DNA of 35,250 nucleotides. Source: a bacterium (lineage in GTDB: Bacteria; Margulisbacteria; WOR-1; O2-12-FULL-45-9). The notes beneath the pieces were generated by a model. That model made no database searches. It was given only the letters and a program-made list of their open reading frames with translations, and had not been told where the DNA came from. The stretch covers positions 1-35,250 of the forward strand of contig JBDRMQ010000092.1 in assembly GCA_043811955.1 (NCBI GenBank). The letters run 5' to 3'. The position numbers and the translations under genes are program-made. Below, piece by piece: positions 409 through 25,478 of the stretch (within the stretch, counting starts at the first letter, position 1; every line of letters starts with the position of its first letter).

Positions 409-1551
409 ATGAAAAAGGTCAAGCGGGCGCACGATCTGCGGCAAACTAAAAAGCTTCTTTCGTTATTCCCTGTAACCGCTATTCTTGGCCCCAGGCAGTG
501 CGGCAAAACAACCTTGGCCGCAGAATTTAACGCTGATTACGCCTTTGACTTGGAAAACCCCCGCGATCTGGCCAAATTTAAAAACCCGCAGTTACTGCTC
601 GAGGAAATAGAAGGGACAATTATAATTGACGAAATCCAAAGAAAGCCAGACCTGTTCCCGCTTTTAAGATATCTTGTCGACACAAACAAAAAACAAAAAT
701 ATATAATCTTAGGCAGCGCCTCTACCGACCTGGTCAAACACAGCTCTGAAAGTTTGGCAGGGAGAATCGGCTATTATGAGCTTGGCGGCTTTGGCCTGCC
801 TGATATTGGGGTAAAAAATTACAAGCAGCTATGGCTAAGGGGCGGGCTGCCCCTCGCTTATTTAAATAGCGCCCCTGAAAAAAGCCTTCTCTGGAAAGAA
901 AACTATATAACAACTTTTTTAGAAAAAGACGTGCCGCAGCTTGGAATAAATATTCCCGCTAATACTTTACGAAAGTTTTGGATGATGCTGTCCGATTACC
1001 ACGGTCAAATAATTAATTATTCGGAATTGGGCAGGGCCTTTGGCGTCTCTGATACGACAGTAAAAAAATACATTGATATTTTAAGCGGGACCTTCATGGT
1101 TAGAATACTTCAGCCCTGGCACGCCAATATCAACAAGCGTCTGGTAAAAAATCCAAAAATATATTTGCGGGACAGCGGCCTTTATCATTGCTTGCTGACA
1201 ATTAGCAGCTGGGACGAGCTCTCCGGCTCAAGTAAACTCGGCGCCTCCTGGGAAGGCTTTGCTCTGGAGCAGGCAATAAAAGTCTTGAAGAAGCAGGCGC
1301 AGGAAGCTTTCTTTTGGAAAACGCACGCTGGCGCAGAGTTAGATCTTTTCTGGCAGGATAAGGGGAAGAACTGGGGCGTTGAGTTTAAATATAGCGATGC
1401 TCCTGCCGCGACAAAATCAATGCATGTTTCTATTGCTGATTTAGGGCTTGATCATCTCTGGGTAATTTATCCAGGAAAAGAAAGCTATAAAATCACACCA
1501 AAAATTACCGCAACCCCCTTAGCTCATTTCATCAAAATGTTTGAGGGTTAA
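409..1551 (+). CDS. AAA+ ATPase (AAA_14) with DUF4143 / PD-(D/E)xK-like C-terminal domain (COG1373 family), copy 1
   Basis: Walker A GPRQCGKT, Walker B IIIDEIQ, LAGR motif, mid-protein HTH-like TVKKYIDIL. C-terminal ELDLF...GVEFK is a nuclease-like D..E.K pattern. Confidence 0.85.
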   Translation: MKKVKRAHDLRQTKKLLSLFPVTAILGPRQCGKTTLAAEFNADYAFDLENPRDLAKFKNPQLLLEEIEGTIIIDEIQRKPDLFPLLRYLVDTNKKQKYIILGSASTDLVKHSSESLAGRIGYYELGGFGLPDIGVKNYKQLWLRGGLPLAYLNSAPEKSLLWKENYITTFLEKDVPQLGINIPANTLRKFWMMLSDYHGQIINYSELGRAFGVSDTTVKKYIDILSGTFMVRILQPWHANINKRLVKNPKIYLRDSGLYHCLLTISSWDELSGSSKLGASWEGFALEQAIKVLKKQAQEAFFWKTHAGAELDLFWQDKGKNWGVEFKYSDAPAATKSMHVSIADLGLDHLWVIYPGKESYKITPKITATPLAHFIKMFEG

Positions 1552-1599: not shown

Positions 1600-2112
1600 T
1601 TATCTTGGATCCATTCTTCTGCTGGGGGCGCGGCCAAATCTCATACCAAAAGATACATTAGATTTGTCAACAGAAAAGGAAACGTCTGCTGGGGGCGGGC
1701 CCAGGATACTTGCCATTTCAGAGAACAGCGCTGTGTACTCAGTATTGGAAAGCCCCTCTTTAATAATCCCCCAACTTGCCTTTGCCACATAATCACCCTT
1801 AGCCAAAGCCATTGAACTATCAAGGCCACCAAACTTTACGCGACCGCGGGAATCAGTATAAGTTGATATTATCAAAGAACCGTCACGCCCTGACGTTGTT
1901 TGGCGGTATATATCAACAACATACTTTACGTTACTATTACTAACCGCGGCACGACCATCAGGCTTTAGCACCATTATCACGATACTTGGCGCTACATTTA
2001 TCGCAACTTCTGTTGCGGCCTCTTCTGTTGCGGCCTGCTCTAGACCATAGGCGCCGCCAGCTATCATCGCGAACATTATGCTCACAACAAGGAACAAAGT
2101 TATTTTTCTCAT
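1600..2112 (-). CDS. secreted protein of unknown function (possible carboxypeptidase-regulatory/Ig-like beta-sandwich)
   Basis: Signal peptide MRKITLFLVVSIMFAMIAGGAYG. SD AAGGAGGTGA lies 8 nt upstream of the ATG. YTDSRGRVKFGGL...GDY weakly recalls the CarboxypepD_reg fold. Confidence 0.6.
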   Translation of the reverse strand: MRKITLFLVVSIMFAMIAGGAYGLEQAATEEAATEVAINVAPSIVIMVLKPDGRAAVSNSNVKYVVDIYRQTTSGRDGSLIISTYTDSRGRVKFGGLDSSMALAKGDYVAKASWGIIKEGLSNTEYTALFSEMASILGPPPADVSFSVDKSNVSFGMRFGRAPSRRMDPR

Positions 2113-2149: not shown

Positions 2150-2181
2150 ATTCTACCCCCCCCCCCCCCATCCTTTTGCAA
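2150..2181 (-). promoter_or_regulatory. promoter of the 170-aa secreted-protein gene, with a homopolymeric G tract in the spacer
   Basis: The minus strand reads TTGCAA (2181-2176), aaggat, G14, TAGAAT (2155-2150). The spacer is 20 nt, 14 of them G. Confidence 0.55.
2156..2169. repeat. homopolymer C14 (G14 on the minus strand)
   Basis: Counted directly: C run 2156-2169. Confidence 0.9.
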
Positions 2182-2189
2182 GCGGAAAT

Positions 2190-2218
2190 TTGCGAAGTGA
2201 CAATCGCTCAGCTATAAT
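2190..2218 (+). promoter_or_regulatory. lpxB-type promoter, copy A (drives only the lpxB fragment)
   Basis: TTGCGA (2190-2195), 17 nt, TATAAT (2213-2218), 6 nt, ATG at 2225. Confidence 0.55.
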
Positions 2219-2224
2219 AACACC

Positions 2225-2347
2225 ATGAAAATCATGATCTCTGCGGGCGAAGTCTCCGGCGATGTACACGGCTCCCACTTGGTTCGCGAACTAAAAAAAC
2301 TCAATCCTAATATTTATTTCTTTGGCATGGGCTCAGAAAAACTGCTG
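2225..2347 (+). pseudogene. lpxB: lpxB 5' fragment (first 41 codons only), diverged allele
   Basis: MKIMISAGEVSGDVHGSHLVRELKKLNPNIYFFGMGSEKLL matches the lpxB N-terminus at 4672 in 37 of 41 residues. After that the ORF reads unrelated sequence to a stop at 2407. Confidence 0.8.
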
Positions 2348-2523
2348 TTATGCGGCAAACCAACCTGCCTTTTTAGCATATCACTTCTATTTTACGACGT
2401 AATATAGAAGCTGTGACGCATTATAGAAGTTGTCAAGCGCGGGATCAACAAAAAGACCGCGATTGAGATCGAGGCAGAAGACCTGATCCTGCCGGATATT
2501 CCGGAGTTAGGGATATAGCTAAT

Positions 2524-3486
2524 CTAGAAAACTGGGGGCCGACCGCCCAACTCAACAACTCGCTGCACCAGGCCTTCGGAAAACAAGTCAAAGAACTCAG
2601 CCTTAGCTTCACAAAATTCTCCCCAGCCAACTCGGGCGCCATCTAGATCAAGAAACTCACCCCGAGTCGAACCGTAGGGGGGAAGAACAACAGTTGCTTC
2701 TGCCCAATCAGTAGCACTAGTCGGAGCGTTGCCGTCTGCTGTATCTACCCTAATATAATTTTCATTAAGAAACAAGGAAAATTCAAGCAAAGTATTCCCC
2801 GCAAAATAGGGATTAATTGAAAACCCCTCTACAAAAACTGACCAAGCATTAAACTGGCCAAAGAACGCGATATTCTGCCTGCAGCGATCCATAAAGGTTC
2901 CCCCCGGGGTAGAATAAACGAACGCCTCGTCCATAAAAGCATTTCTAGGGTCAGAGACAATCCTGTCAAAAGCACTGGCAAGCAATCCGATTTTATTGCG
3001 AATGGATCGATGACAATTCCTAAGTTCAAGGAGGTTGTCTGCCGTAAAACTCGCGCCTGCAGGAACCAGCGCAGCCCTTCTGCGCACTTCCCATTCCCCA
3101 ATTGCAGCTGCCGGCAAAAGCTCATCAGAATAGTATCTATTTCTATACTTATTAGCTGTTTGATGACTTAAGACAGCTATTTCCCGTAACTCCATAACCA
3201 CCCTGGCAATATCACTATCAGTAACACCATACTTTTTACCAAGCACGTTAATATCAATTTTAACAAGCGGATAGTCTGGGAGGTCAACCTTCATGCCTAC
3301 GATTGGCTCTCTCCCTAGATCAAAGCTTTGCCTCGATGAAGCCCTTGGCACACCAAAGGCTCCTCCCGGGCTAACAACCTCTGTTCTTTTTATCGCGGCC
3401 GGAGCTGCAGCAACAAAAGACGCACCAACAAAGCCCAAACAAAAAACTATCACAATAACAACTGAAACAACCTTTACCTTAATCAT
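2524..3486 (-). CDS. secreted protein of unknown function (320 aa)
   Basis: N-terminal signal/anchor MIKVKVVSVVIVIVFCLGFVGASFVAAAPA. SD GGGGAGGAAA upstream. I recognise no domain. Confidence 0.6.
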   Translation of the reverse strand: MIKVKVVSVVIVIVFCLGFVGASFVAAAPAAIKRTEVVSPGGAFGVPRASSRQSFDLGREPIVGMKVDLPDYPLVKIDINVLGKKYGVTDSDIARVVMELREIAVLSHQTANKYRNRYYSDELLPAAAIGEWEVRRRAALVPAGASFTADNLLELRNCHRSIRNKIGLLASAFDRIVSDPRNAFMDEAFVYSTPGGTFMDRCRQNIAFFGQFNAWSVFVEGFSINPYFAGNTLLEFSLFLNENYIRVDTADGNAPTSATDWAEATVVLPPYGSTRGEFLDLDGARVGWGEFCEAKAEFFDLFSEGLVQRVVELGGRPPVF

Positions 3487-3521
3487 AATTATATTTCCTC
3501 CCCTTCACTAAGATAAGAGTA

Positions 3522-3556
3522 ATATTACCCCCCCCCCCCCCCCCATCCTTTTGCAA
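3522..3556 (-). promoter_or_regulatory. promoter of the 320-aa secreted-protein gene, with a homopolymeric G tract in the spacer
   Basis: The minus strand reads TTGCAA (3556-3551), aaggat, G17, TAATAT (3527-3522). The spacer is 23 nt. Confidence 0.55.
3528..3544. repeat. homopolymer C17 (G17 on the minus strand)
   Basis: Counted directly: C run 3528-3544. Confidence 0.9.
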
Positions 3557-3564
3557 GCGGAAAT

Positions 3565-3593
3565 TTGCGCTTCGCGAAAGTCTCGGCTATAAT
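3565..3593 (+). promoter_or_regulatory. lpxB-type promoter, copy B (drives the NTase cassette plus lpxB)
   Basis: TTGCGC (3565-3570), 17 nt, TATAAT (3588-3593), 6 nt, ATG at 3600. The 25 nt atccttttgcaagcggaaatttgcg are identical to copy A. Confidence 0.55.
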
Positions 3594-3599
3594 GTTGGC

Positions 3600-3758
3600 A
3601 TGTATTCCCAACAGAAAATCAAAAAAAGTTTGTTCCAGGTAGATATGCCAGTTGATCTCTTACTTTTCAAAGAAGCTCCTTTTAACAAAAGAAAAAATGT
3701 TTGGGGGAGCGTTCAATACAAAATCTTTCAAAATGGAAAGTTAGTTTATGAAAAATGA
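3600..3758 (+). CDS. small ORF (52 aa), possibly a remnant of a nucleotidyltransferase/antitoxin
   Basis: Hand translation: MYSQQKIKKSLFQVDMPVDLLLFKEAPFNKRKNVWGSVQYKIFQNGKLVYEK. The ATG sits exactly 6 nt after the -10 box. It is below the ORF-track length cutoff. Confidence 0.3.
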   Translation: MYSQQKIKKSLFQVDMPVDLLLFKEAPFNKRKNVWGSVQYKIFQNGKLVYEK

Positions 3759-3969
3759 AAATGAGTTAATGCGAGGGGAACGAAAAATCGCGCGAAAAAA
3801 ACCGGGCAACAAATTTATTGATGAGGAAAGAGAATGGTTAAATCTTTCGCCTAGCCAGCGTATGCTAGAAACAACAAAGCTATGGCAATTATACCTAGCA
3901 TTAGGAGGCAGCCTTGACCCAGAACCCAATCCTCAAAGTCCTTTCTACTTTCAAAAAGCACAAAGTTAA
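3748..3969 (+). CDS. small basic protein (73 aa), putative partner of the downstream nucleotidyltransferase
   Basis: The ORF overlaps the small ORF upstream by 11 nt and the downstream gene by 56 nt. Basic N-terminus. No domain recognised. Confidence 0.4.
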   Translation: MKNENELMRGERKIARKKPGNKFIDEEREWLNLSPSQRMLETTKLWQLYLALGGSLDPEPNPQSPFYFQKAQS

Positions 3970-4675
3970 AGCGCTGTTGATCGGCGGGCAGGCTTGTATT
4001 ATCTATGGCGCAGCCGAATTCAGCCGCGACTCTGACTTTGTTCTGCTGTGCGAGCAAGAAAATCTTGAGCGCCTTAATAAGGCATTGAAGGCATTAAAGG
4101 CCGAATTAATTTATGTTCCCCCGTTAGAAATAGGTTACTTGCAGAAAGGGCATGCTTGTCATTTTAGATGCAAGGCAAAGGATGTTGCAGGGCTACGCAT
4201 TGATATAATGGCCAAGATGAGGGGCTGCGATCCTTTTGAGAAGTTATGGAAACGCAGGAAAAAAGTATCGGTAGAAGGCAATGGTATTATAGATATCATT
4301 GGCCTACGAGACCTAGTTAAAAGCAAAAAGACAAAACGCGACAAGGATTGGTTAATGCTTAAAAATCTAGTTGAGAATGACATTGTGTTAAATAAAGAGC
4401 ACCCTGCTGAAGATCAGATAAAGTGGTGGTTACTGGAAAGCAGACATCCTGAATCTCTCGTTCGCTTAGCCACGGAATATTCAAAGATTAGCAATGAATG
4501 CTTAACTTATCGGCCACTTTTAGCTGCTGCTACTGAGAGAGAGAAACAAAAACTTGCTTCTTTGCTTCACGAAGAAGAATTAGCAGAGAGGAAAAGGGAC
4601 GCCGATTATTGGTCTCCTCTAATCAAAGAATTAGAAACGCTCCGCCATCTGGCAAGCAAACGGGGACAGCAATGA
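3914..4675 (+). CDS. Pol-beta superfamily minimal nucleotidyltransferase-fold protein (253 aa)
   Basis: NTase signature GG-x13-DSD (LIGGQACIIYGAAEFSRDSDFVL). The LRDLVKSKKTKRDKDW helix is typical of these NTases. AGGAGG lies 5 nt before the TTG start at 3914. The stop overlaps the lpxB start (ATGA at 4672-4675). Confidence 0.6.
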   Translation: MTQNPILKVLSTFKKHKVKALLIGGQACIIYGAAEFSRDSDFVLLCEQENLERLNKALKALKAELIYVPPLEIGYLQKGHACHFRCKAKDVAGLRIDIMAKMRGCDPFEKLWKRRKKVSVEGNGIIDIIGLRDLVKSKKTKRDKDWLMLKNLVENDIVLNKEHPAEDQIKWWLLESRHPESLVRLATEYSKISNECLTYRPLLAAATEREKQKLASLLHEEELAERKRDADYWSPLIKELETLRHLASKRGQQ

Positions 4676-5778
4676 AAATCATGCTCTCTGCCGGAGAGGT
4701 TTCCGGCGATGTCCACGGCTCTCATTTAGTCCGCGAGCTTAAAAAGCTTAAGCCAGAAGCATACTTCTTTGGTATGGGCTCAGAAAAACTTTTGGCTGAG
4801 GGCGTAGCCGTTAAAGTTGACATTACCAAGCGCGGCACAATTGGCATTTTTGAAGCCCTGCCTAATGTTCTCCCTGTTTTTCTCGCCTATAAAAAAATGG
4901 TTGGCCTGATGAAGTCAGAAAAACCAGATATGCTTATTCTCGTTGATTCCCAAGGGATTAACATGCCCCTAGCCAAAGCTGCAAAAAAGCTAGGGATTAA
5001 AACAGTCTACTACATCGCCCCGCAAGAGTGGCTTTGGGGAACACCCAAGGGCGTTAAGAAGGTTTCCGAAACAATTGATTTAATTATTTCCATTTTTGAG
5101 AAAGAACACGAAACCTACCAGCAAGCTGGAGGAAACTCAATCTATTTCGGTCATCCCCTACTAGACATTGTTAAAGGGGACAGCCAGTTTGCAAAAGGTG
5201 AAGGGCCCACGATTGCCCTGTGCCCAGGAAGCAGAACCCAGGAGATCAAAGGCTTACTCCCTATTCTTTTAAAAGCTGGGGAGTTGCTCAAAAAAGAACT
5301 TCCAAAGGCAGAGTTTATAATCCCCGCGGCGTCGACAGAAATGATCAAGAAAATTTTTAATTATATTGGCGAGGATTTTCGGCCTAAAGCTATCATTGGC
5401 CATACCTACGACATCCTGGCCAGCGCAGACCTCGCGCTTTGTGCCTCAGGCACAATTAATCTTGAAGCTTCAATTTTGGGAACACCAAATATCATGGTTT
5501 ATAAGCTCTCTCCCCTGACCTACTTTGTCGGCAAACATATTCTAAAAATTGGCGAGAAATTAAAATATTTTAGTATGCCTAATATGTTGCTTGATGAGCG
5601 GGCTATTCCAGAACTCGTTATGGAACAAGCTGAACCAAAAATAATTGCTCAAGAAGCCCTTTCTATTATTATTGATCAAGAACGACAAGCCAAGATGAAG
5701 GCCTCTTTTGAAAAACTGCGAACAAAGCTTGGCCAGCCTGGCGTGATTGAGAAAGTAGCCAGGGAGATTTTGAAATAG
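4672..5778 (+). CDS. lpxB: lipid-A-disaccharide synthase
   Basis: N-terminal MKIMLSAGEVSGDVHGSHLVRELK is the LpxB hallmark, and the length and C-terminus are GT19-like. I chose the ATG at 4672 because the lpxB fragment at 2225 starts at the same residue. Confidence 0.9.
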   Translation: MKIMLSAGEVSGDVHGSHLVRELKKLKPEAYFFGMGSEKLLAEGVAVKVDITKRGTIGIFEALPNVLPVFLAYKKMVGLMKSEKPDMLILVDSQGINMPLAKAAKKLGIKTVYYIAPQEWLWGTPKGVKKVSETIDLIISIFEKEHETYQQAGGNSIYFGHPLLDIVKGDSQFAKGEGPTIALCPGSRTQEIKGLLPILLKAGELLKKELPKAEFIIPAASTEMIKKIFNYIGEDFRPKAIIGHTYDILASADLALCASGTINLEASILGTPNIMVYKLSPLTYFVGKHILKIGEKLKYFSMPNMLLDERAIPELVMEQAEPKIIAQEALSIIIDQERQAKMKASFEKLRTKLGQPGVIEKVAREILK

Positions 5779-5799
5779 CCACAAATACCGCAAATCCTA
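5695..5799. repeat. direct repeat L: last 27 codons plus stop of lpxB, plus 21 nt
   Basis: Aligns to 10162-10266 over 105 nt with 5 substitutions. Confidence 0.9.
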
Positions 5800-5834: not shown

Positions 5835-6977
5835 ATGATCTCAAGATTCCTGGCCTTAAGCAAGATTAAGCGCTCTCTCTTCCTGTTTGGTCCTCGGCAG
5901 GTAGGCAAAACCTACCTAATAAAGAACACCCTAGCTCCCGACATTTTCATAAACCTCCTAAAGCAAGAAGAATACTTAAGATATGCTGGAACCCCCCAGC
6001 TGCTGCGACAGGAAGTCAAGGCAAACATGCTAGTAGTTATAGACGAAATCCAGCGTTGCCCCTCCCTGCTCAACGAGGTCCAATTAATAATTGATGACAA
6101 TCCCTCTGTTCAATTTATCCTGACCGGCTCCAGCGCGCGGAAACTGCGGCGCCACGGGGTTAACTTGCTTGGTGGCAGAGCGATTGTCCTGCACCTTTTT
6201 CCGTTTACCGCTGATGAATTAGCAGATCTCTTTAACCTTGAGGAAGCATTGCTCTTTGGCGCCCTCCCCAGCATCGCGCTAGAAAAGGAAAAAGAGAGCA
6301 AGGTCCTCCTGCTGAAAAGCTATGTCGAAACCTATCTAAAAGAAGAAGTCCAACAGGAAGCCCTAACCAGGAACGTGCCGGCATTTGCCCGCTTTCTGGA
6401 ACTGGCAGCTCACGAAAACGGCAACATCCTCAATTTTCAGGCACTGTCCAGGGAAGTCGGCGTTACCTCAAAGACCATAAAAGAGTATTTTCATATCCTT
6501 GAGGATACTTTGCTTGGCTTTTTCCTTAATCCCTTCACCAAGTCCGAGCGGAAAAGAGTAGTCAGCCATCCAAGATTTTATTTTTTCGACCTAGGGGTCG
6601 TTGCTGCCTTAAGGCACGAACTATCAAGCAACTTAACGGCTGGAACACCCGCCTATGGCAGGGCCTTTGAGCACTGGGTAATTTTGGAAATAAAAAGGCT
6701 AATAGATTACAAAGGACTCGACTGGAAAATAAGCTTTTTTAGGACCAGCGACGGCGCAGAAGTTGATTTGCTTTTAGAAACAGGGAAAGAGCTCTGGGCA
6801 ATTGAAATAAAATCTTCCTCAGAGCCACGCGCGAGCGATCTCCGCGGATTAAAAAGCTTTTTGCGCGACCATCAGGTCGCTAAGTCCTTTTGCGTTTGCC
6901 AAACACCAAGGCCATACGCAACAGATGGCATTGAATTCATTCCATGGAAAGATTTTCTCAAGTTATTAAAACCTTAA
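5835..6977 (+). CDS. AAA+ ATPase (AAA_14) with DUF4143 / PD-(D/E)xK-like domain, copy 2
   Basis: GPRQVGKT, VVIDEIQ, TGSSARKLRR, LLGGR, C-terminal AEVDLLL...AIEIKSS. Confidence 0.85.
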   Translation: MISRFLALSKIKRSLFLFGPRQVGKTYLIKNTLAPDIFINLLKQEEYLRYAGTPQLLRQEVKANMLVVIDEIQRCPSLLNEVQLIIDDNPSVQFILTGSSARKLRRHGVNLLGGRAIVLHLFPFTADELADLFNLEEALLFGALPSIALEKEKESKVLLLKSYVETYLKEEVQQEALTRNVPAFARFLELAAHENGNILNFQALSREVGVTSKTIKEYFHILEDTLLGFFLNPFTKSERKRVVSHPRFYFFDLGVVAALRHELSSNLTAGTPAYGRAFEHWVILEIKRLIDYKGLDWKISFFRTSDGAEVDLLLETGKELWAIEIKSSSEPRASDLRGLKSFLRDHQVAKSFCVCQTPRPYATDGIEFIPWKDFLKLLKP

Positions 6978-7042: not shown

Positions 7043-7603
7043 ATGGTGAGAGCACAATTAACTAAATTAACTACACATATCCCTTGGTTTTCGGCTGGGG
7101 AGCGCGTTTTCACCACCGCCAGATTTCAACTCAAAAGAAATAGCTGCGTTTGGATGGCCCTGGGATTTAAACATTCTTCTGCTTCTGTGAATGCAGCGAT
7201 TCTAAGAGGTTTAAGCGGGGATTATTATTTCGCATCTATTAGCCCTGACGAGATAAATCTTACCAAGCTAGACCAAGGGACATCAACGATTGGGCGAAAC
7301 AGAAACTGTAAAATTACAATCCCAGACACCCATCGTTTTAACCCTGTTGTTTCAAATCATCATCTGGAAGTTGATTTGTCTGCTGAAGGAATATCGATTA
7401 AAGAACCCAAAGAAACATCCTATGGAACAATGCTTTTTCCTAAGGAACCCCCTTGCGCCAAGGCTTTGTTTGAAGCCTTGGCCATTGAAACCGCCGATAC
7501 AATCGTGCAAGGAACTCCTTTTGTTTCTCCCCCACCAGAAATAGAGTACACAACCCAGTCAAAAAAAGGGGGGGCCGAGAGAGCTTACTCTAGAGGATGT
7601 TGA
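7043..7603 (+). CDS. FHA-like domain protein (186 aa)
   Basis: TIGRNRNCKITIP...VVSNHHLEVDL...ETSYGT follows the FHA pattern GR...SxxH...(N/Y)GT. It is paralogous to the N-terminus of the 8431 gene. GGAGG at 7035-7039. Confidence 0.55.
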   Translation: MVRAQLTKLTTHIPWFSAGERVFTTARFQLKRNSCVWMALGFKHSSASVNAAILRGLSGDYYFASISPDEINLTKLDQGTSTIGRNRNCKITIPDTHRFNPVVSNHHLEVDLSAEGISIKEPKETSYGTMLFPKEPPCAKALFEALAIETADTIVQGTPFVSPPPEIEYTTQSKKGGAERAYSRGC

Positions 7604-7610
7604 TACTATT

Positions 7611-20871: not shown

Positions 20872-22014
20872 ATGGAGTTTACAATAAATAAGAGAGATCT
20901 CCAAAATGGTGTTTCCGCGGTCGAAAAAATTGTTACTACCAGAAGTACGCTCCCGATTATTGGTTATCTTCTTTTTGATGTAAAAAAGAAAGGGGTTAAG
21001 ATTTCGGCTAATAATCTTGAGATGGGAATTGAGTTTGGCATTGCCTCTAATGTAACCAAGGAGGGAACTGTTTTGGTCCCAGCAAAAACCTTGAGTGGGA
21101 TTGTCTCTAAATTGCCTGATGCAGATGTCTCCTTTAAATTGAACGAGAAGGGGACTATCAAAATTTCTTTTAATCAATCTAATTTTAATGTCCACACCCT
21201 GCCGCCTGACGAATTTCCTGCTTTAGCTAAAGTAAAAGATGGTAAATCATTCCTAATTAATTCAGTCATTTTTTCTTCCATGATTAAACAGACTATTTTT
21301 TCTGTTTCCAGCAGTGAGGATAAACATGTTTTATCAGGTGTTTTACTTGAATTTGGCAAAAGTTCTCGCTCTGGTGATAGTTCTAATTTTCGGATGGTCT
21401 CAACTGATGGCTATCGCTTAGCTAAGAGGGGAGAGAGCTTGGACTTGAAAGCCGATGTTAAAGGGGCTGTTATTGTTCCAGCCAAGGCACTACAAGAAAT
21501 TGCTAGGATCATTGATTTAGAAAAAGGCGAAGGCCCGATTGAAATTACCTTTGCTAATGACCAAATCTCTTTTAAGTATAATGAGGTTTATTTAGTTTCT
21601 CGAGTAATCCAGGGACAATTTCCTGACTATCGTCAAGTCCTGCCCAAAAAGAGCGCGACGAAAATAGAGATAAATAGGAAGCTATTATTAGCTTCATCTG
21701 AACGGGCAGCTGTAATTGCGGCAGGTTCAGCCAACATTGTGCGCTTTGATGTTAGGGATGATAAGCTGCGTTTATTTGCCAGCACCCCTGATGTTGGGAC
21801 GGTTGATGAAGTTTTAGACGCGAAAATAACTGGGCAAGGGACGGCTCAAATCGCGTTTAATATTCGTTTAATAACAGATGTTTTAAAAGTTCTTGAAGGG
21901 GAAAATATAATTATTGAATTAAGCGAAGCCCTGGGGCCTGGCCTTATTCAGGGTGAGGGTGAGGCTAATTATTTTTATATAGTTATGCCGATTAAAACCC
22001 AAGAGACCTCTTAA
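20872..22014 (+). CDS. dnaN: DNA polymerase III beta sliding clamp
   Basis: Position after dnaA, length of 380 aa, motifs LPIIGYLLF, MVSTDGYRLA and GPGLI. GGAGG SD. Confidence 0.93.
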   Translation: MEFTINKRDLQNGVSAVEKIVTTRSTLPIIGYLLFDVKKKGVKISANNLEMGIEFGIASNVTKEGTVLVPAKTLSGIVSKLPDADVSFKLNEKGTIKISFNQSNFNVHTLPPDEFPALAKVKDGKSFLINSVIFSSMIKQTIFSVSSSEDKHVLSGVLLEFGKSSRSGDSSNFRMVSTDGYRLAKRGESLDLKADVKGAVIVPAKALQEIARIIDLEKGEGPIEITFANDQISFKYNEVYLVSRVIQGQFPDYRQVLPKKSATKIEINRKLLLASSERAAVIAAGSANIVRFDVRDDKLRLFASTPDVGTVDEVLDAKITGQGTAQIAFNIRLITDVLKVLEGENIIIELSEALGPGLIQGEGEANYFYIVMPIKTQETS

Positions 22015-24338: not shown

Positions 24339-25478
24339 ATGTACTCCAGATTACTTAGGCCGCCGATAGACAAAAGCTTCTTTTTATTTGGCCCTCGTGG
24401 CACTGGAAAAACAACTTGGGTTAAAACAACTTTTCCAAAAGGCCTTTATTTAGACCTGCTTGAGGCCGAGCTGTTTAATGATCTTTTAGCAAACCCACAA
24501 AAGCTAGAATCTATTATCCCACAAGGCTTTAATGACTGGATAATTATTGATGAGGTGCAAAGGGTCCCAGCTTTGCTGAACGAAGTTCATAGATTAATTG
24601 AAAAGGAAAAGCATAAGTTTGTTTTGACGGGTTCGAGTGCTCGAAAACTCCGCCGGGGAGGAGAAAATTTATTGGCAGGGCGAGCCTTGACATATGCTAT
24701 GCATCCCTTAGCGGCGATAGAACTTAAAAATGATTTTGACTTAGATCATTCGCTTATGTATGGACAGCTTCCTAGCGCATACGCCGAGTCAGACCCCAAA
24801 GCGTATTTAGAAAGCTATGTTAAAACATATCTGGAAGAAGAAATTCAGCAAGAAGGCTTAACTAGAAATCTAGGGGCTTTTTCAAGGTTTTTGGAGGCGG
24901 CTAGCTTTTCTCAAGGCGCAGTTTTAAGCATTTCCTCTGTGGCTAGGGATTGCGCCGTGGAGAGAAAGGTTGTAGAGAATTATTTTAAAATTTTGGAAGA
25001 TTTATTAATTGCTTGCCGCCTACCAGCTTTTACCAAGAAAGCCAAAAGAAGAATTGTTAGTCATCCAAAATTTTATTTTTTTGATGTTGGAGTTTTTCGA
25101 ACTATCCGGCCATTGGGACCACTTGATAATCCAGAGGCGGTTGCAGGGCAGGCCTTTGAAAGCTTGGTTTTGCAGGAATTGCAAGCGATCAATGATATTT
25201 ATAAATTAGGCTATGAAATTTATTATTGGCGGACAGCAAACAACGCGGAAGTTGATTTTATCCTTTATGGGGAAAAAGGGCTCTTGGCGATTGAGGTAAA
25301 GCGCTCGGCGAAAGTATCTGGCTCAATGCTAAGCGGCTTGAAAGCTTTTAAGCGAGACTATCCTATGGCGCGATCAGTTCTGGTCTATGGAGGGAAACGA
25401 GAATTGCAAGAAGGGGACATTCGTGTTATCCCTGCCGAGAAATTTTTTCAAGAGTTGCCGTCAATCCTTTCTAAATAA
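24339..25478 (+). CDS. AAA+ ATPase (AAA_14) with DUF4143 / PD-(D/E)xK-like domain, copy 3
   Basis: GPRGTGKT, IIIDEVQ, TGSSARKLRR, LLAGR, C-terminal AEVDFIL...AIEVKRS. Confidence 0.85.
   Translation: MYSRLLRPPIDKSFFLFGPRGTGKTTWVKTTFPKGLYLDLLEAELFNDLLANPQKLESIIPQGFNDWIIIDEVQRVPALLNEVHRLIEKEKHKFVLTGSSARKLRRGGENLLAGRALTYAMHPLAAIELKNDFDLDHSLMYGQLPSAYAESDPKAYLESYVKTYLEEEIQQEGLTRNLGAFSRFLEAASFSQGAVLSISSVARDCAVERKVVENYFKILEDLLIACRLPAFTKKAKRRIVSHPKFYFFDVGVFRTIRPLGPLDNPEAVAGQAFESLVLQELQAINDIYKLGYEIYYWRTANNAEVDFILYGEKGLLAIEVKRSAKVSGSMLSGLKAFKRDYPMARSVLVYGGKRELQEGDIRVIPAEKFFQELPSILSK

What the first reader, a model, noticed from the sequence alone, without database searches (positions are those of the whole stretch)
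3522..3556. G17 tract inside the -35/-10 spacer of a second secreted-protein gene promoter, copy B of the same module
The minus strand reads TTGCAA-aaggat-G17-TAATAT (a 23-nt spacer) upstream of the unrelated 320-aa signal-peptide protein. The 25 nt flanking the tract (atccttttgcaagcggaaatttgcg) are identical to copy A (2170-2194 versus 3545-3569). The leaders also share CTTATCTTA. The same switchable divergent-promoter module is therefore attached to two different surface or secreted cargo genes, with different tract lengths. This points to independently switching loci.
Basis: partly seen in the sequence, partly recalled or inferred. Interest (0 to 1): 0.7.

Follow-up and report, generated by a model that had tools for sequence, protein, structure and literature searches.

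The report
Poly-G promoter switch before secreted-protein gene
A run of 17 G's sits directly against the -10 box of the promoter of a secreted-protein gene in an uncultivated groundwater-type bacterium (Saganbacteria/Margulisiibacteriota). The same layout recurs in front of unrelated secreted-protein genes in this genome and its relatives, so it is most likely a slippage-prone on/off promoter of a kind well known from pathogens, though switching itself is not shown.

Summary
C17 lies at 3528-3544 (+ strand); the minus strand reads TTGCAA-aaggat-G17-TAATAT, 35 nt upstream of the ATG of a 320-aa signal-peptide ORFan. The 25-nt flank is identical to copy A (C14, 2156-2169).

The window is a contig of a Saganbacteria-like MAG (Margulisiibacteriota). 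In 170 kb of this clade I found 8 distinct loci where G9-G17 directly abuts a TAGAAT or TAATAT hexamer, ahead of a signal-peptide gene wherever that gene is visible. The cargo genes fall into five unrelated families.
- Orthologues of the 320-aa gene (41-48% identity) keep the tract.
- A paralogous promoter carries an interrupted tract (GGGGAGAGGGAG) with a 16-nt spacer.
- Two loci read TTGACA-N6-G9/G10-TAGAAT (spacers 15 and 16).
- Contigs from other assemblies end at the tract or within 5 nt of it, and one scaffold has a gap there.

This fits a slipped-strand, length-dependent promoter (porA, tp0126, Bordetella fim C-stretch). At 23 nt the copy-B spacer should be OFF for a plain sigma-70 reading. 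Alternatively, the conserved 19-nt core TTGCAAGCRGAAATTYGCG is an activator site, as in fim promoters. No reads were available, so switching is inferred. This is a new member of a known kind.

The parts
2524..3486 (-). Cargo gene B: a 320-aa protein with an N-terminal signal-peptide-like segment (MIKVKVVSVVIVIVFCLGFVGASFVAAAP...) and no known domain.
   Evidence: ORF. No Pfam hit. Only itself among 5.8e9 proteins. Three relatives among 1.84e9 representatives.
3487..3521 (-). 5' leader of cargo B, with Shine-Dalgarno GGGGAGG (3497-3503) and the CTTATCTTA motif (3510-3518) shared with copy A.
   Evidence: (repeat D8).
3522..3527 (-). -10-like hexamer TAATAT, directly abutting the tract.
   Evidence: The same hexamer follows the tract in L004. 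TAGAAT takes this position at five other loci and a cut-off AGAAT at the L010-12 locus.
3528..3544 (-). G17 homopolymer (C17 on the + strand), the candidate slippage tract.
3545..3550 (-). 6-nt linker aaggat between the tract and TTGCAA. It varies between lineages (atagct, tgatggca).
3551..3569 (.). Conserved 19-nt core TTGCAAGCGGAAATTTGCG. It holds the -35-like TTGCAA of the cargo promoter (3551-3556) and overlaps the -35-like TTGCGC of the + strand promoter. It may be a regulator site.
   Evidence: Identical in copy A. 18/19 and 17/19 identical in two other lineages. Found only next to tracts.
3565..3593 (+). Divergent promoter TTGCGC-N17-TATAAT. The ATG at 3600 lies 6 nt after the -10 box, so the transcript is probably leaderless.
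   Evidence: The copy-A counterpart TTGCGA-N17-TATAAT scores 10/12. L020 has the same layout.
3600..3969 (+). Degraded nucleotidyltransferase-type ORF (52 aa) plus a 73-aa ORF, followed by the 253-aa gene and lpxB (4672-5778). All are presumably transcribed from the + promoter.
   Evidence: (L004 has the longer, uninterrupted ORF; the NTP_transf_2 and HEPN annotations come from L015 and L010).
2150..2218 (.). Copy A of the module: TAGAAT (2150-2155, minus strand), G14 (2156-2169), linker, core (2176-2194) and the + promoter TTGCGA-N17-TATAAT (2190-2218).
1600..2112 (-). Cargo gene A: a 170-aa signal-peptide ORFan.
2225..2343 (+). Fragment of the lpxB 5' end, 81% identical at nucleotide level to the resident lpxB at 4672-4790. 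It is a rearrangement scar on the + side of copy A.
   Evidence: (repeat D2).
2434..2517 (+). Fragment of the lpxA 3' end, convergent with cargo B. It is a rearrangement scar.
   Evidence: 86% to L004 821-904. L009 carries a similar extra fragment.

Best explanation
The G17 tract is the variable spacer of a contingency-type promoter.

How it would work. A sigma-70-like -10 hexamer (TAATAT) directly follows the tract. An upstream recognition element lies 6 nt before it: TTGCAA inside a conserved 19-nt core. Slipped-strand mispairing at the long G:C run during replication adds or removes G's. This changes the distance and helical phase between the upstream element and the -10 box, and so turns transcription of the downstream secreted-protein gene up or down, heritably and reversibly.

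What follows for this window. With a 6-nt linker, a canonical 16-18-nt spacer needs G10-G12. As assembled, copy B (23 nt) and copy A (20 nt) are therefore most likely in low or OFF states. Because the two copies share an identical upstream element and linker but differ by 3 bp, they cannot both sit at the same promoter geometry.

Wider context. The module belongs to a family of such promoters in a Saganbacteria clade. They drive strain-specific secreted or surface ORFan genes inserted in the lpxA-methyltransferase-lpxB region.

Shown: the anatomy, its recurrence, and length differences between loci and lineages. Inferred: promoter activity, slippage, and the ON/OFF assignment.
For: 1. The tract and its flanks are real and far beyond chance.

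2. The architecture recurs at 8 distinct loci. In each, a G-run is followed at once by TAGAAT or TAATAT (AGAAT at the contig end of L011). Where the downstream gene is visible, a Shine-Dalgarno sequence and the ATG of a signal-peptide gene follow 29-43 nt later. The loci are window A (G14), window B (G17), L004a (G10), L004b (G14 or more), L007 and L008 (G10 or more), L009a (G9) and L010-12 (G14, cargo not seen).

3. Two loci have a perfect -35: TTGACA-aaaact-G10-TAGAAT (spacer 16) and TTGACA-aaaaat-G9-TAGAAT (spacer 15). This shows the tract lies in a -35/-10 spacer.

4. The paralogue of the L009 NHL-repeat gene has TTGACA-aaaaGGGGAGAGGGAG-TAAAAT, an interrupted tract with a 16-nt spacer. This is what a fixed version of such a switch would look like.

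5. Orthologues of the 320-aa cargo at 41-48% identity, from two other metagenomes, keep the tract next to TAGAAT. An unselected homopolymer would not persist over that divergence.

6. The cargo genes fall into five unrelated families. All have signal-peptide-like N termini, the class of genes usually under phase variation.

7. Six contigs from other assemblies end in the tract (L007, L008, L010, L012, L020) or just past it (L019), L011 ends 5 nt beyond it, and the L004 scaffold has an N gap there. This is as expected for a long and possibly heterogeneous homopolymer.

8. Experimentally proven precedents exist. T. pallidum tp0126 has a poly-G in the -35/-10 spacer with an optimum at 17 nt, and the N. 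meningitidis porA poly-G lies in the spacer (PMC7864442). Bordetella fim2/fim3 switch independently through poly-C length (PMC10172299).
Against: - There is no direct evidence of length heterogeneity. No reads were available, and the one locus seen in three samples gives 14, at least 14 and at least 13.
- All four loci with the TTGCAA-type module have spacers of 20 to 23 nt or at least 20. None is in the 16-18 range, which is odd if TTGCAA is a plain -35.
- Reaching an ON state from G17 needs loss of 5-7 bases, far more than the one-step switches typical of known loci.
- Promoter rules for this phylum are untested.
- Tract lengths above about 10 in short-read assemblies are imprecise.
Confidence: 0.55

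Rival explanations
1. Same slippage switch, but activator-dependent, as in Bordetella fim promoters. The conserved 19-nt core (TTGCAAGCRGAAATTYGCG) would be the binding site of a transcription factor rather than a plain -35. The tract would set the distance from that site to the -10 box, and lengths around G14-G17 (distance 20-23) would be near the ON state rather than OFF.
For: - The core is conserved 17-19/19 in three lineages, while the linker next to it (aaggat, atagct, tgatggca) and the sequence beyond it diverge.
- In L010-12 the + strand promoter lies elsewhere (TTGACA-N17-TAAACT), so the conservation cannot be explained as that promoter's -35.
- All TTGCAA-type loci have distances of 20, 22, 23 or at least 20.
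- In Bordetella the fim promoters combine a conserved 'fim box' with a C-stretch. For Pfim3, 14 C's is the ON length (PMC10172299).
- The core contains an imperfect palindrome, CGCAAA/TTTCCG.
Against: - No regulator has been identified.
- TTGCAA is a reasonable -35 (4/6).
- The TTGACA-type loci in the same clade work as plain -35/-10 spacers.
- The distances differ by 3 bp between the two copies in this window, so at most one can be optimal.
Confidence: 0.25
2. A static promoter feature with no switching. The G:C run would be a fixed structural element: a rigid or A-like spacer, a block to nucleoid-protein binding, or an insulator between the two back-to-back promoters. The length differences would be slow evolutionary drift rather than a population-level switch.
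For: - No within-lineage length change was seen (L010-12).
- The G9 in the coding region of the FHA-like gene is identical in three assemblies.
- The tract lies exactly between two divergent promoters.
Against: - G:C runs of 14-17 are intrinsically unstable in every bacterium tested (poly-C lengths of 11 to 16 coexist in one B. pertussis culture, PMC10172299).
- Lengths range from 9 to 17 among homologous modules.
- Assemblies break at the tract.
- An interrupted variant exists.
Confidence: 0.1
3. A recombination or cassette boundary. The tract, which can form a G-quadruplex at 15 or more G's, would mark or stimulate exchange of the adjacent secreted-protein gene. The module would then be the conserved end of a replaceable cassette rather than mainly an expression switch.
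For: - Cargo genes differ completely between relatives whose flanks are 86% identical.
- Fragments of lpxA, lpxB and the methyltransferase gene lie beside the cassettes in the window and in L009.
- The same cargo family is found at different junctions.
Against: - No silent cassette copies, recombinase gene or repeated boundary on the other side of the cargo genes were found.
- Homology between copies A and B ends near the start codon, not at the tract.
- The position abutting the -10 box is explained by a promoter role.
Confidence: 0.06
4. Sequencing or assembly artefact, such as poly-G read tails from two-colour chemistry or a chimeric join.
For: - Several contigs end in G/C runs.
- Homopolymer lengths from short reads are unreliable.
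Against: - The tract is internal in the window (twice), in L004, in L009 and in L011. It has conserved flanks on both sides and the same position relative to the -10 box, the Shine-Dalgarno sequence and the ATG.
- It appears in independent assemblies from NCBI, JGI, ENA and Logan.
- Synteny across the tract matches relatives.
Confidence: 0.03

Closest known systems
Bordetella pertussis / B. bronchiseptica fimbrial promoters (fim2, fim3, fimX, fimN): 'fim box' plus C-stretch
   Same: - A long poly-C/G run lies in the promoter between a conserved upstream box and the -10 box: 10-15 for fim2, 13-18 for fim3, about C19 or more in B. bronchiseptica.
- The conserved upstream box is shared by several separately located genes.
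- Each gene switches independently.
- Interrupted tracts occur in relatives (C6TC3, C9TC8), like GGGGAGAGGGAG here (PMC1891110, PMC10172299).
   Different: - The cargo genes here are unrelated ORFans, not paralogous fimbrial subunits.
- No BvgA-like activator is known.
- The organism is an uncultivated Margulisiibacteriota member, apparently environmental rather than host-restricted (sample origin not verified).
- The module is fused back-to-back with a housekeeping promoter (lpxB or nucleotidyltransferase side).
- Sequence similarity of the core to the fim box was not tested.
Neisseria meningitidis porA and Treponema pallidum tp0126: poly-G within the -35/-10 spacer
   Same: - A G-run lies inside the spacer of a sigma-70-type promoter of an outer-membrane or secreted protein gene.
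- Expression is optimal when the spacer is 17 nt (PMC7864442).
- The TTGACA-N6-G9/G10-TAGAAT loci in L004 and L009 have exactly this layout.
   Different: - The tracts here are longer (14-17), giving 20-23-nt spacers well outside the range those systems move in.
- Length variation and its effect on expression are proven there and only inferred here.
Mycoplasma hyorhinis vlp genes: poly-A tract in each vlp promoter
   Same: One promoter design with a homopolymer is placed before several different surface-protein genes. Each gene is its own transcript and switches independently, giving combinatorial surface variation (PMC10502178).
   Different: - The tract is poly-A rather than poly-G.
- The vlp genes are paralogous lipoproteins clustered together; the cargo families here are unrelated.
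- The organism is a host-restricted parasite.

Membership tests
Homopolymer (simple-sequence-repeat) promoter phase variation / contingency locus | An uninterrupted mononucleotide tract of about 8 or more within the core promoter, between the upstream element and the -10 box | tested here: met
   G17 lies between TTGCAA and TAATAT. The same layout occurs at 8 distinct loci, although the upstream element itself is visible at only 6 of them. The promoter itself is predicted, not mapped.
Homopolymer (simple-sequence-repeat) promoter phase variation / contingency locus | Tract length is polymorphic within a clonal population or among very close strains, and reversibly so | tested here: inconclusive
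   Lengths of 9-17 are seen among homologous modules in different loci and lineages. The only locus sampled three times gives 14, at least 14 and at least 13. No reads were available. Contig breaks at the tract are suggestive only.
Homopolymer (simple-sequence-repeat) promoter phase variation / contingency locus | Transcription depends on tract length | not testable with these tools
   This needs reporter fusions or metatranscriptomes. Indirect support only: spacers of 15-16 with TTGACA and a fixed 16-nt interrupted version.
Homopolymer (simple-sequence-repeat) promoter phase variation / contingency locus | The controlled gene encodes a surface or secreted product | tested here: met
   All seven visible cargo proteins downstream of an uninterrupted tract, and the one behind the interrupted tract in L009, start with a charged n-region, a hydrophobic segment of 15-20 residues and an Ala-rich end (by inspection). 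No signal-peptide predictor was available.
Bordetella fim-type promoter (fim box + C-stretch, BvgA-activated) | A conserved upstream box shared by several genes, separated from the -10 box by the C-stretch | tested here: met
   The 19-nt core TTGCAAGCRGAAATTYGCG is present next to the tract in the window (twice), in the L004 lineage (L019/L020) and in L010-12. It is absent elsewhere.
Bordetella fim-type promoter (fim box + C-stretch, BvgA-activated) | Dependence on a response-regulator activator bound at the box | not testable with these tools
   No regulator was identified and none can be assigned from sequence.
Bordetella fim-type promoter (fim box + C-stretch, BvgA-activated) | Cargo genes are fimbrial major subunits | tested here: not met
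   The 170-aa and 320-aa proteins have no Pfam family. The cargo genes fall into five unrelated families, one of them NHL-repeat proteins.
Mycoplasma vlp-type system | A poly-A tract in the promoter spacer of paralogous lipoprotein genes in one cluster | tested here: not met
   The tract is G, not A. The cargo genes are not paralogous. No lipobox cysteine follows the hydrophobic segment in cargo A or B.
G-quadruplex-initiated cassette recombination (Neisseria pilE type; from my own knowledge) | A G4 motif near the expressed gene, plus silent donor copies of that gene | tested here: not met
   G17 could formally fold as a G4. However, no second copy of either cargo gene exists in the window or in the protein databases.

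The most novel reading that the evidence does not exclude
The G-tract modules would be both switches and exchange points. In this Saganbacteria clade, the lpxA-lpxB region would be a dedicated hot spot where strain-specific secreted-protein genes are swapped in behind a conserved, slippage-prone promoter. The recombinogenic or G4-forming tract would help to drive cassette replacement. That would make it a combined expression-switching and gene-shuffling system in a free-living, uncultivated phylum, perhaps under pressure from phages or predators rather than from an immune system.
Probability: 0.07. Interest if true: 0.75.

Novelty: new member of a known kind. Interest (0 to 1): 0.5.

Why it matters
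Homopolymer-driven phase variation is regarded as a hallmark of host-adapted pathogens such as Neisseria, Haemophilus, Bordetella, Treponema, Campylobacter and Mycoplasma. Here the same promoter design appears in an uncultivated Margulisiibacteriota/Saganbacteria clade. Its genomes appear to come from groundwater-type metagenomes; I infer this from the record names and from my own knowledge and did not verify it.

The design is conserved and used repeatedly in front of strain-specific secreted ORFans. If switching is confirmed, stochastic surface variation also operates in subsurface, free-living lineages, where phages, predators or attachment may be the selective pressure. No paper in the library links Saganbacteria with phase variation.

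There is also a practical point. These tracts systematically break short-read assemblies, so the genes behind them are likely to be under-represented in MAGs.

Tried and rejected
- **Exact search for the module.** I searched the 25-mer in 185,579 species genomes, a 20-mer in the JGI metagenomes and the 19-nt core in viral contigs. There were no true hits. The three metagenome hits (L001-L003) are chance matches without a tract.
- **Exact-protein look-up of both cargo genes.** Neither is on record.
- **Homologue searches.** The 170-aa protein has none and the 320-aa protein has none by word-indexed search. The full HMMER scan gave two orthologues and one giant repeat protein.
- **Pfam on cargo genes and neighbours.** Nothing was found for the cargo genes.
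- **AlphaFold2 of the 320-aa protein with 3 sequences.** Mean pLDDT was 39.7, which is unusable, so no fold search was run.
- **Test for within-lineage tract variation.** L010-12 and L004/L019/L020 are uninformative because the contigs end in the tract.
- **Idea that the window's 186-aa and 269-aa ORFs (7043-8420) are one gene split at the A7G7 run.** Only the first ORF resembles the L004 434-aa protein, so this is not supported.
- **L015/L016 minus-strand genes.** They were examined as possible cassettes. They have no tract and no signal peptide.
- **Artefact explanation.** Rejected because internal, flank-conserved copies exist in independent assemblies.

Full report
**1. The observation**

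- The + strand carries C17 at 3528-3544.
- Read on the minus strand, 3556-3522 is TTGCAA-aaggat-G17-TAATAT.
- Then come a 35-nt leader with GGGGAGG and the ATG of a 320-aa ORF (2524-3486).
- The flanking 25-mer ATCCTTTTGCAAGCGGAAATTTGCG occurs exactly twice, at 2170-2194 and 3545-3569. None was expected by chance, even at 3 mismatches.
- Copy A has C14 (2156-2169) and TAGAAT.
- The copies are homologous over about 110 nt, from the Shine-Dalgarno region to a + strand TATAAT. The shared leader motif CTTATCTTA is part of that homology.
- These are the only G or C runs of 9 or more in the window.

**2. Where the window comes from**

- Both cargo proteins match only themselves. Their records are 'MAG: hypothetical protein ABIH69_03705 / _03715 [bacterium]', on a contig of 35,250 nt. 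The window is therefore a whole MAG contig.
- LpxB (4672-5778) is 79-81% identical to proteins of Candidatus Saganbacteria, WOR-1 and Margulisiibacteriota MAGs.

**3. The same layout in relatives**

I fetched 18 related loci through LpxB and through the two orthologues of the 320-aa protein. Together with the window they hold 170 kb and 13 G/C runs of 9 or more, against 0.32 expected.

Ten of the 13 runs, at 8 distinct loci, are followed at once by a -10-like hexamer (TAGAAT or TAATAT; AGAAT at the contig end of L011, hexamer not seen in L010 and L012). Where the downstream gene is visible, a Shine-Dalgarno sequence and the ATG of a protein with a signal-peptide-like N terminus follow.

| Locus | Promoter as read | Spacer | Cargo |
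|---|---|---|---|
| Window A | TTGCAA-aaggat-G14-TAGAAT | 20 | 170 aa |
| Window B | TTGCAA-aaggat-G17-TAATAT | 23 | 320 aa |
| L004a | TTGACA-aaaact-G10-TAGAAT | 16 | 208 aa |
| L004b | TTGCAA-atagct-G14 or more-TAATAT | at least 20 | 140 aa |
| L009a | TTGACA-aaaaat-G9-TAGAAT | 15 | 306-aa NHL-repeat protein |
| L007, L008 | G10 or more-TAGAAT | not seen | 309 and 310 aa, orthologues of the window's 320-aa protein at 48% and 41% |
| L010/11/12 | TTGCAA-tgatggca-G14-(T)AGAAT | 22 | off the contig |

- For L004b, the scaffold has an N gap. L019 and L020, from the same lineage, supply the far side.
- A paralogue of the L009 NHL gene has TTGACA-aaaaGGGGAGAGGGAG-TAAAAT, an interrupted tract with a 16-nt spacer.
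- The three remaining runs are one G9 inside the 5' coding region of an FHA-like gene (L004, L019, L020).

**4. What is conserved and what is not**

- The cargo genes fall into five unrelated families.
- The window and L004 are 86% identical across the methyltransferase and AAA-ATPase genes up to the cargo gene. The cargo genes themselves share nothing.
- In the TTGCAA-type modules a 19-nt core, TTGCAAGCRGAAATTYGCG, is conserved 17-19/19 in three lineages. The linker and the distal sequence vary. The core occurs nowhere else in the window or in the other loci.
- On the + strand, the window copies and L020 have TTGCG(A/C)-N17-TATAAT with an ATG 6 nt after the -10 box. This probably drives a leaderless transcript of the nucleotidyltransferase, 253-aa and lpxB genes. 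In copy A it drives a dead lpxB fragment.
- The tract lies 20 nt upstream of that promoter's -35, not in its spacer.

**5. Locus history**

- Relatives L005, L013, L014, L017/18 and L021 have lpxA, with or without the methyltransferase gene, and lpxB packed together. They have no cassettes and no tracts.
- The cassettes therefore look like insertions into this operon.
- The window keeps scars: an lpxB 5' fragment (2225-2343, 81% to the resident gene) and an lpxA 3' fragment (2434-2517). L009 has similar extra fragments.
- The 320-aa family sits after lpxA' in the window, but next to the methyltransferase gene in L007 and L008.

**6. Mechanism**

The anatomy is that of a promoter in which a homopolymer sets the distance between an upstream element and the -10 box. 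Proven precedents:
- T. pallidum tp0126 and N. meningitidis porA have a poly-G in the spacer, with an optimum at 17 nt (PMC7864442).
- M. hyorhinis vlp genes carry a poly-A in every vlp promoter and switch independently (PMC10502178).
- Bordetella fim2, fim3 and fimX combine a 'fim box' with a C-stretch of 10-18 or more. Interrupted tracts occur in relatives, and several lengths coexist in one culture (PMC1891110, PMC10172299).

The TTGACA-type loci here fit the plain spacer model. Their spacers are 15-16 nt, and the interrupted version has 16 nt.

The window's two copies have 20 and 23 nt, outside sigma-70 tolerance. There are two readings:
- They are OFF as assembled. This is my leading reading for G17.
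- The conserved core is an activator site, and distances of about 20-23 are near the ON state, as in fim promoters.

In either reading the two copies differ by 3 bp behind identical upstream elements. They cannot share one geometry, which fits independent setting.

**7. What is not shown**

- No reads were available, so there is no direct evidence of length heterogeneity.
- The only multi-sample locus is uninformative because its contigs end in the tract.
- Six contigs from other assemblies end in the tract or just past it, L011 ends 5 nt beyond it, and L004 has a scaffold gap there. This is consistent with a heterogeneous or hard-to-sequence tract, but it does not prove switching.
- Promoter activity, the transcription start and the location of the cargo proteins are all inferred.
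- The structure prediction of the 320-aa protein failed (pLDDT 39.7).

**8. Verdict**

This is a real, non-random and evolutionarily maintained feature. It is most likely a slipped-strand, length-dependent promoter for strain-specific secreted proteins. The mechanism is well known; the phylum and the modular use before unrelated ORFans are new. I class it as a new member of a known kind, with interest 0.5.

Noticed in passing
window 2225-2343 and 2434-2517: An lpxB 5' fragment (81% identical at nucleotide level to the resident lpxB at 4672-4790) is followed about 90 nt later by an lpxA 3' fragment. These are scars of a rearrangement, or of imported DNA from a related lineage, between the two cassettes. 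L009 also carries an extra lpxA 3' fragment (5470-5550) and a methyltransferase fragment (6240-6327) beside its cargo genes.
   Followed up: partly
window 5686-5799 and 10153-10266: A 114-nt direct repeat at 93% identity. The second copy is a duplicate of the lpxB 3' end, sitting just before the aminotransferase gene (10269-11423). In relatives (L013, L014) lpxB is followed directly by that aminotransferase gene. The 4.3-kb segment between the repeats (AAA-ATPase, FHA-like gene, 269-aa and 562-aa ORFs) therefore looks like an insertion flanked by a duplicated gene end.
   Followed up: partly
window 2213-2227 and 3588-3602; L020 46-60: On the + strand the ATG starts 6 nt after the TATAAT box in both modules and in L020. 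This implies leaderless mRNAs for the lpxB and nucleotidyltransferase side. L006 has TATAAT 9 nt before the lpxB ATG.
   Followed up: no
window 3600-3969: The first + strand ORF (52 aa) is an internally deleted remnant of a longer ORF that is uninterrupted in L004 (5587-5782). An equivalent gene upstream of lpxB in L015 hits the nucleotidyltransferase family NTP_transf_2 and is followed by a HEPN-domain gene. This looks like a decaying toxin-antitoxin-like pair upstream of lpxB.
   Followed up: partly
L004 8445-8453 (also L019 2916-2924 and L020 2918-2926); window 7561-7574: A G9 run lies 11 codons into an FHA-like 434-aa gene and has the same length in three assemblies. It may be a coding-region slippage site. 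In the window the corresponding FHA-like ORF (7043-7603) has an A7G7 run 10 codons before its stop. A split-gene reading was not supported.
   Followed up: partly
L004 1667-1688; L009 about 7431-7452 (minus strand): A 22-nt imperfect palindrome, TTGGATAATGGCCATTGACCAA, is conserved about 40 nt (L004) and about 30 nt (L009) upstream of the TTGACA-type G-tract promoters. It lies between them and the divergent AAA-ATPase gene (L004) or methyltransferase gene (L009). It may be an operator.
   Followed up: no
P0005: A 2,673-aa protein contains 12 repeats matching residues 223-295 of the 320-aa cargo protein. This suggests that the cargo's C-terminal part is a module also used in giant, presumably surface, proteins.
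   Followed up: no
window 409-1551 and 5835-6977 (also 20872-22014 and 24339-25478, sizes only): DUF4143/AAA_14 ATPase genes flank the cassettes in the window. Pfam confirms 409-1551 only. 5835-6977 looks similar by sequence and by its position after lpxB. 20872-22014 and 24339-25478 were not examined. Genes of this family also flank the cassettes in L004, L009 and L015. Their link to the insertions is unexplained.
   Followed up: no
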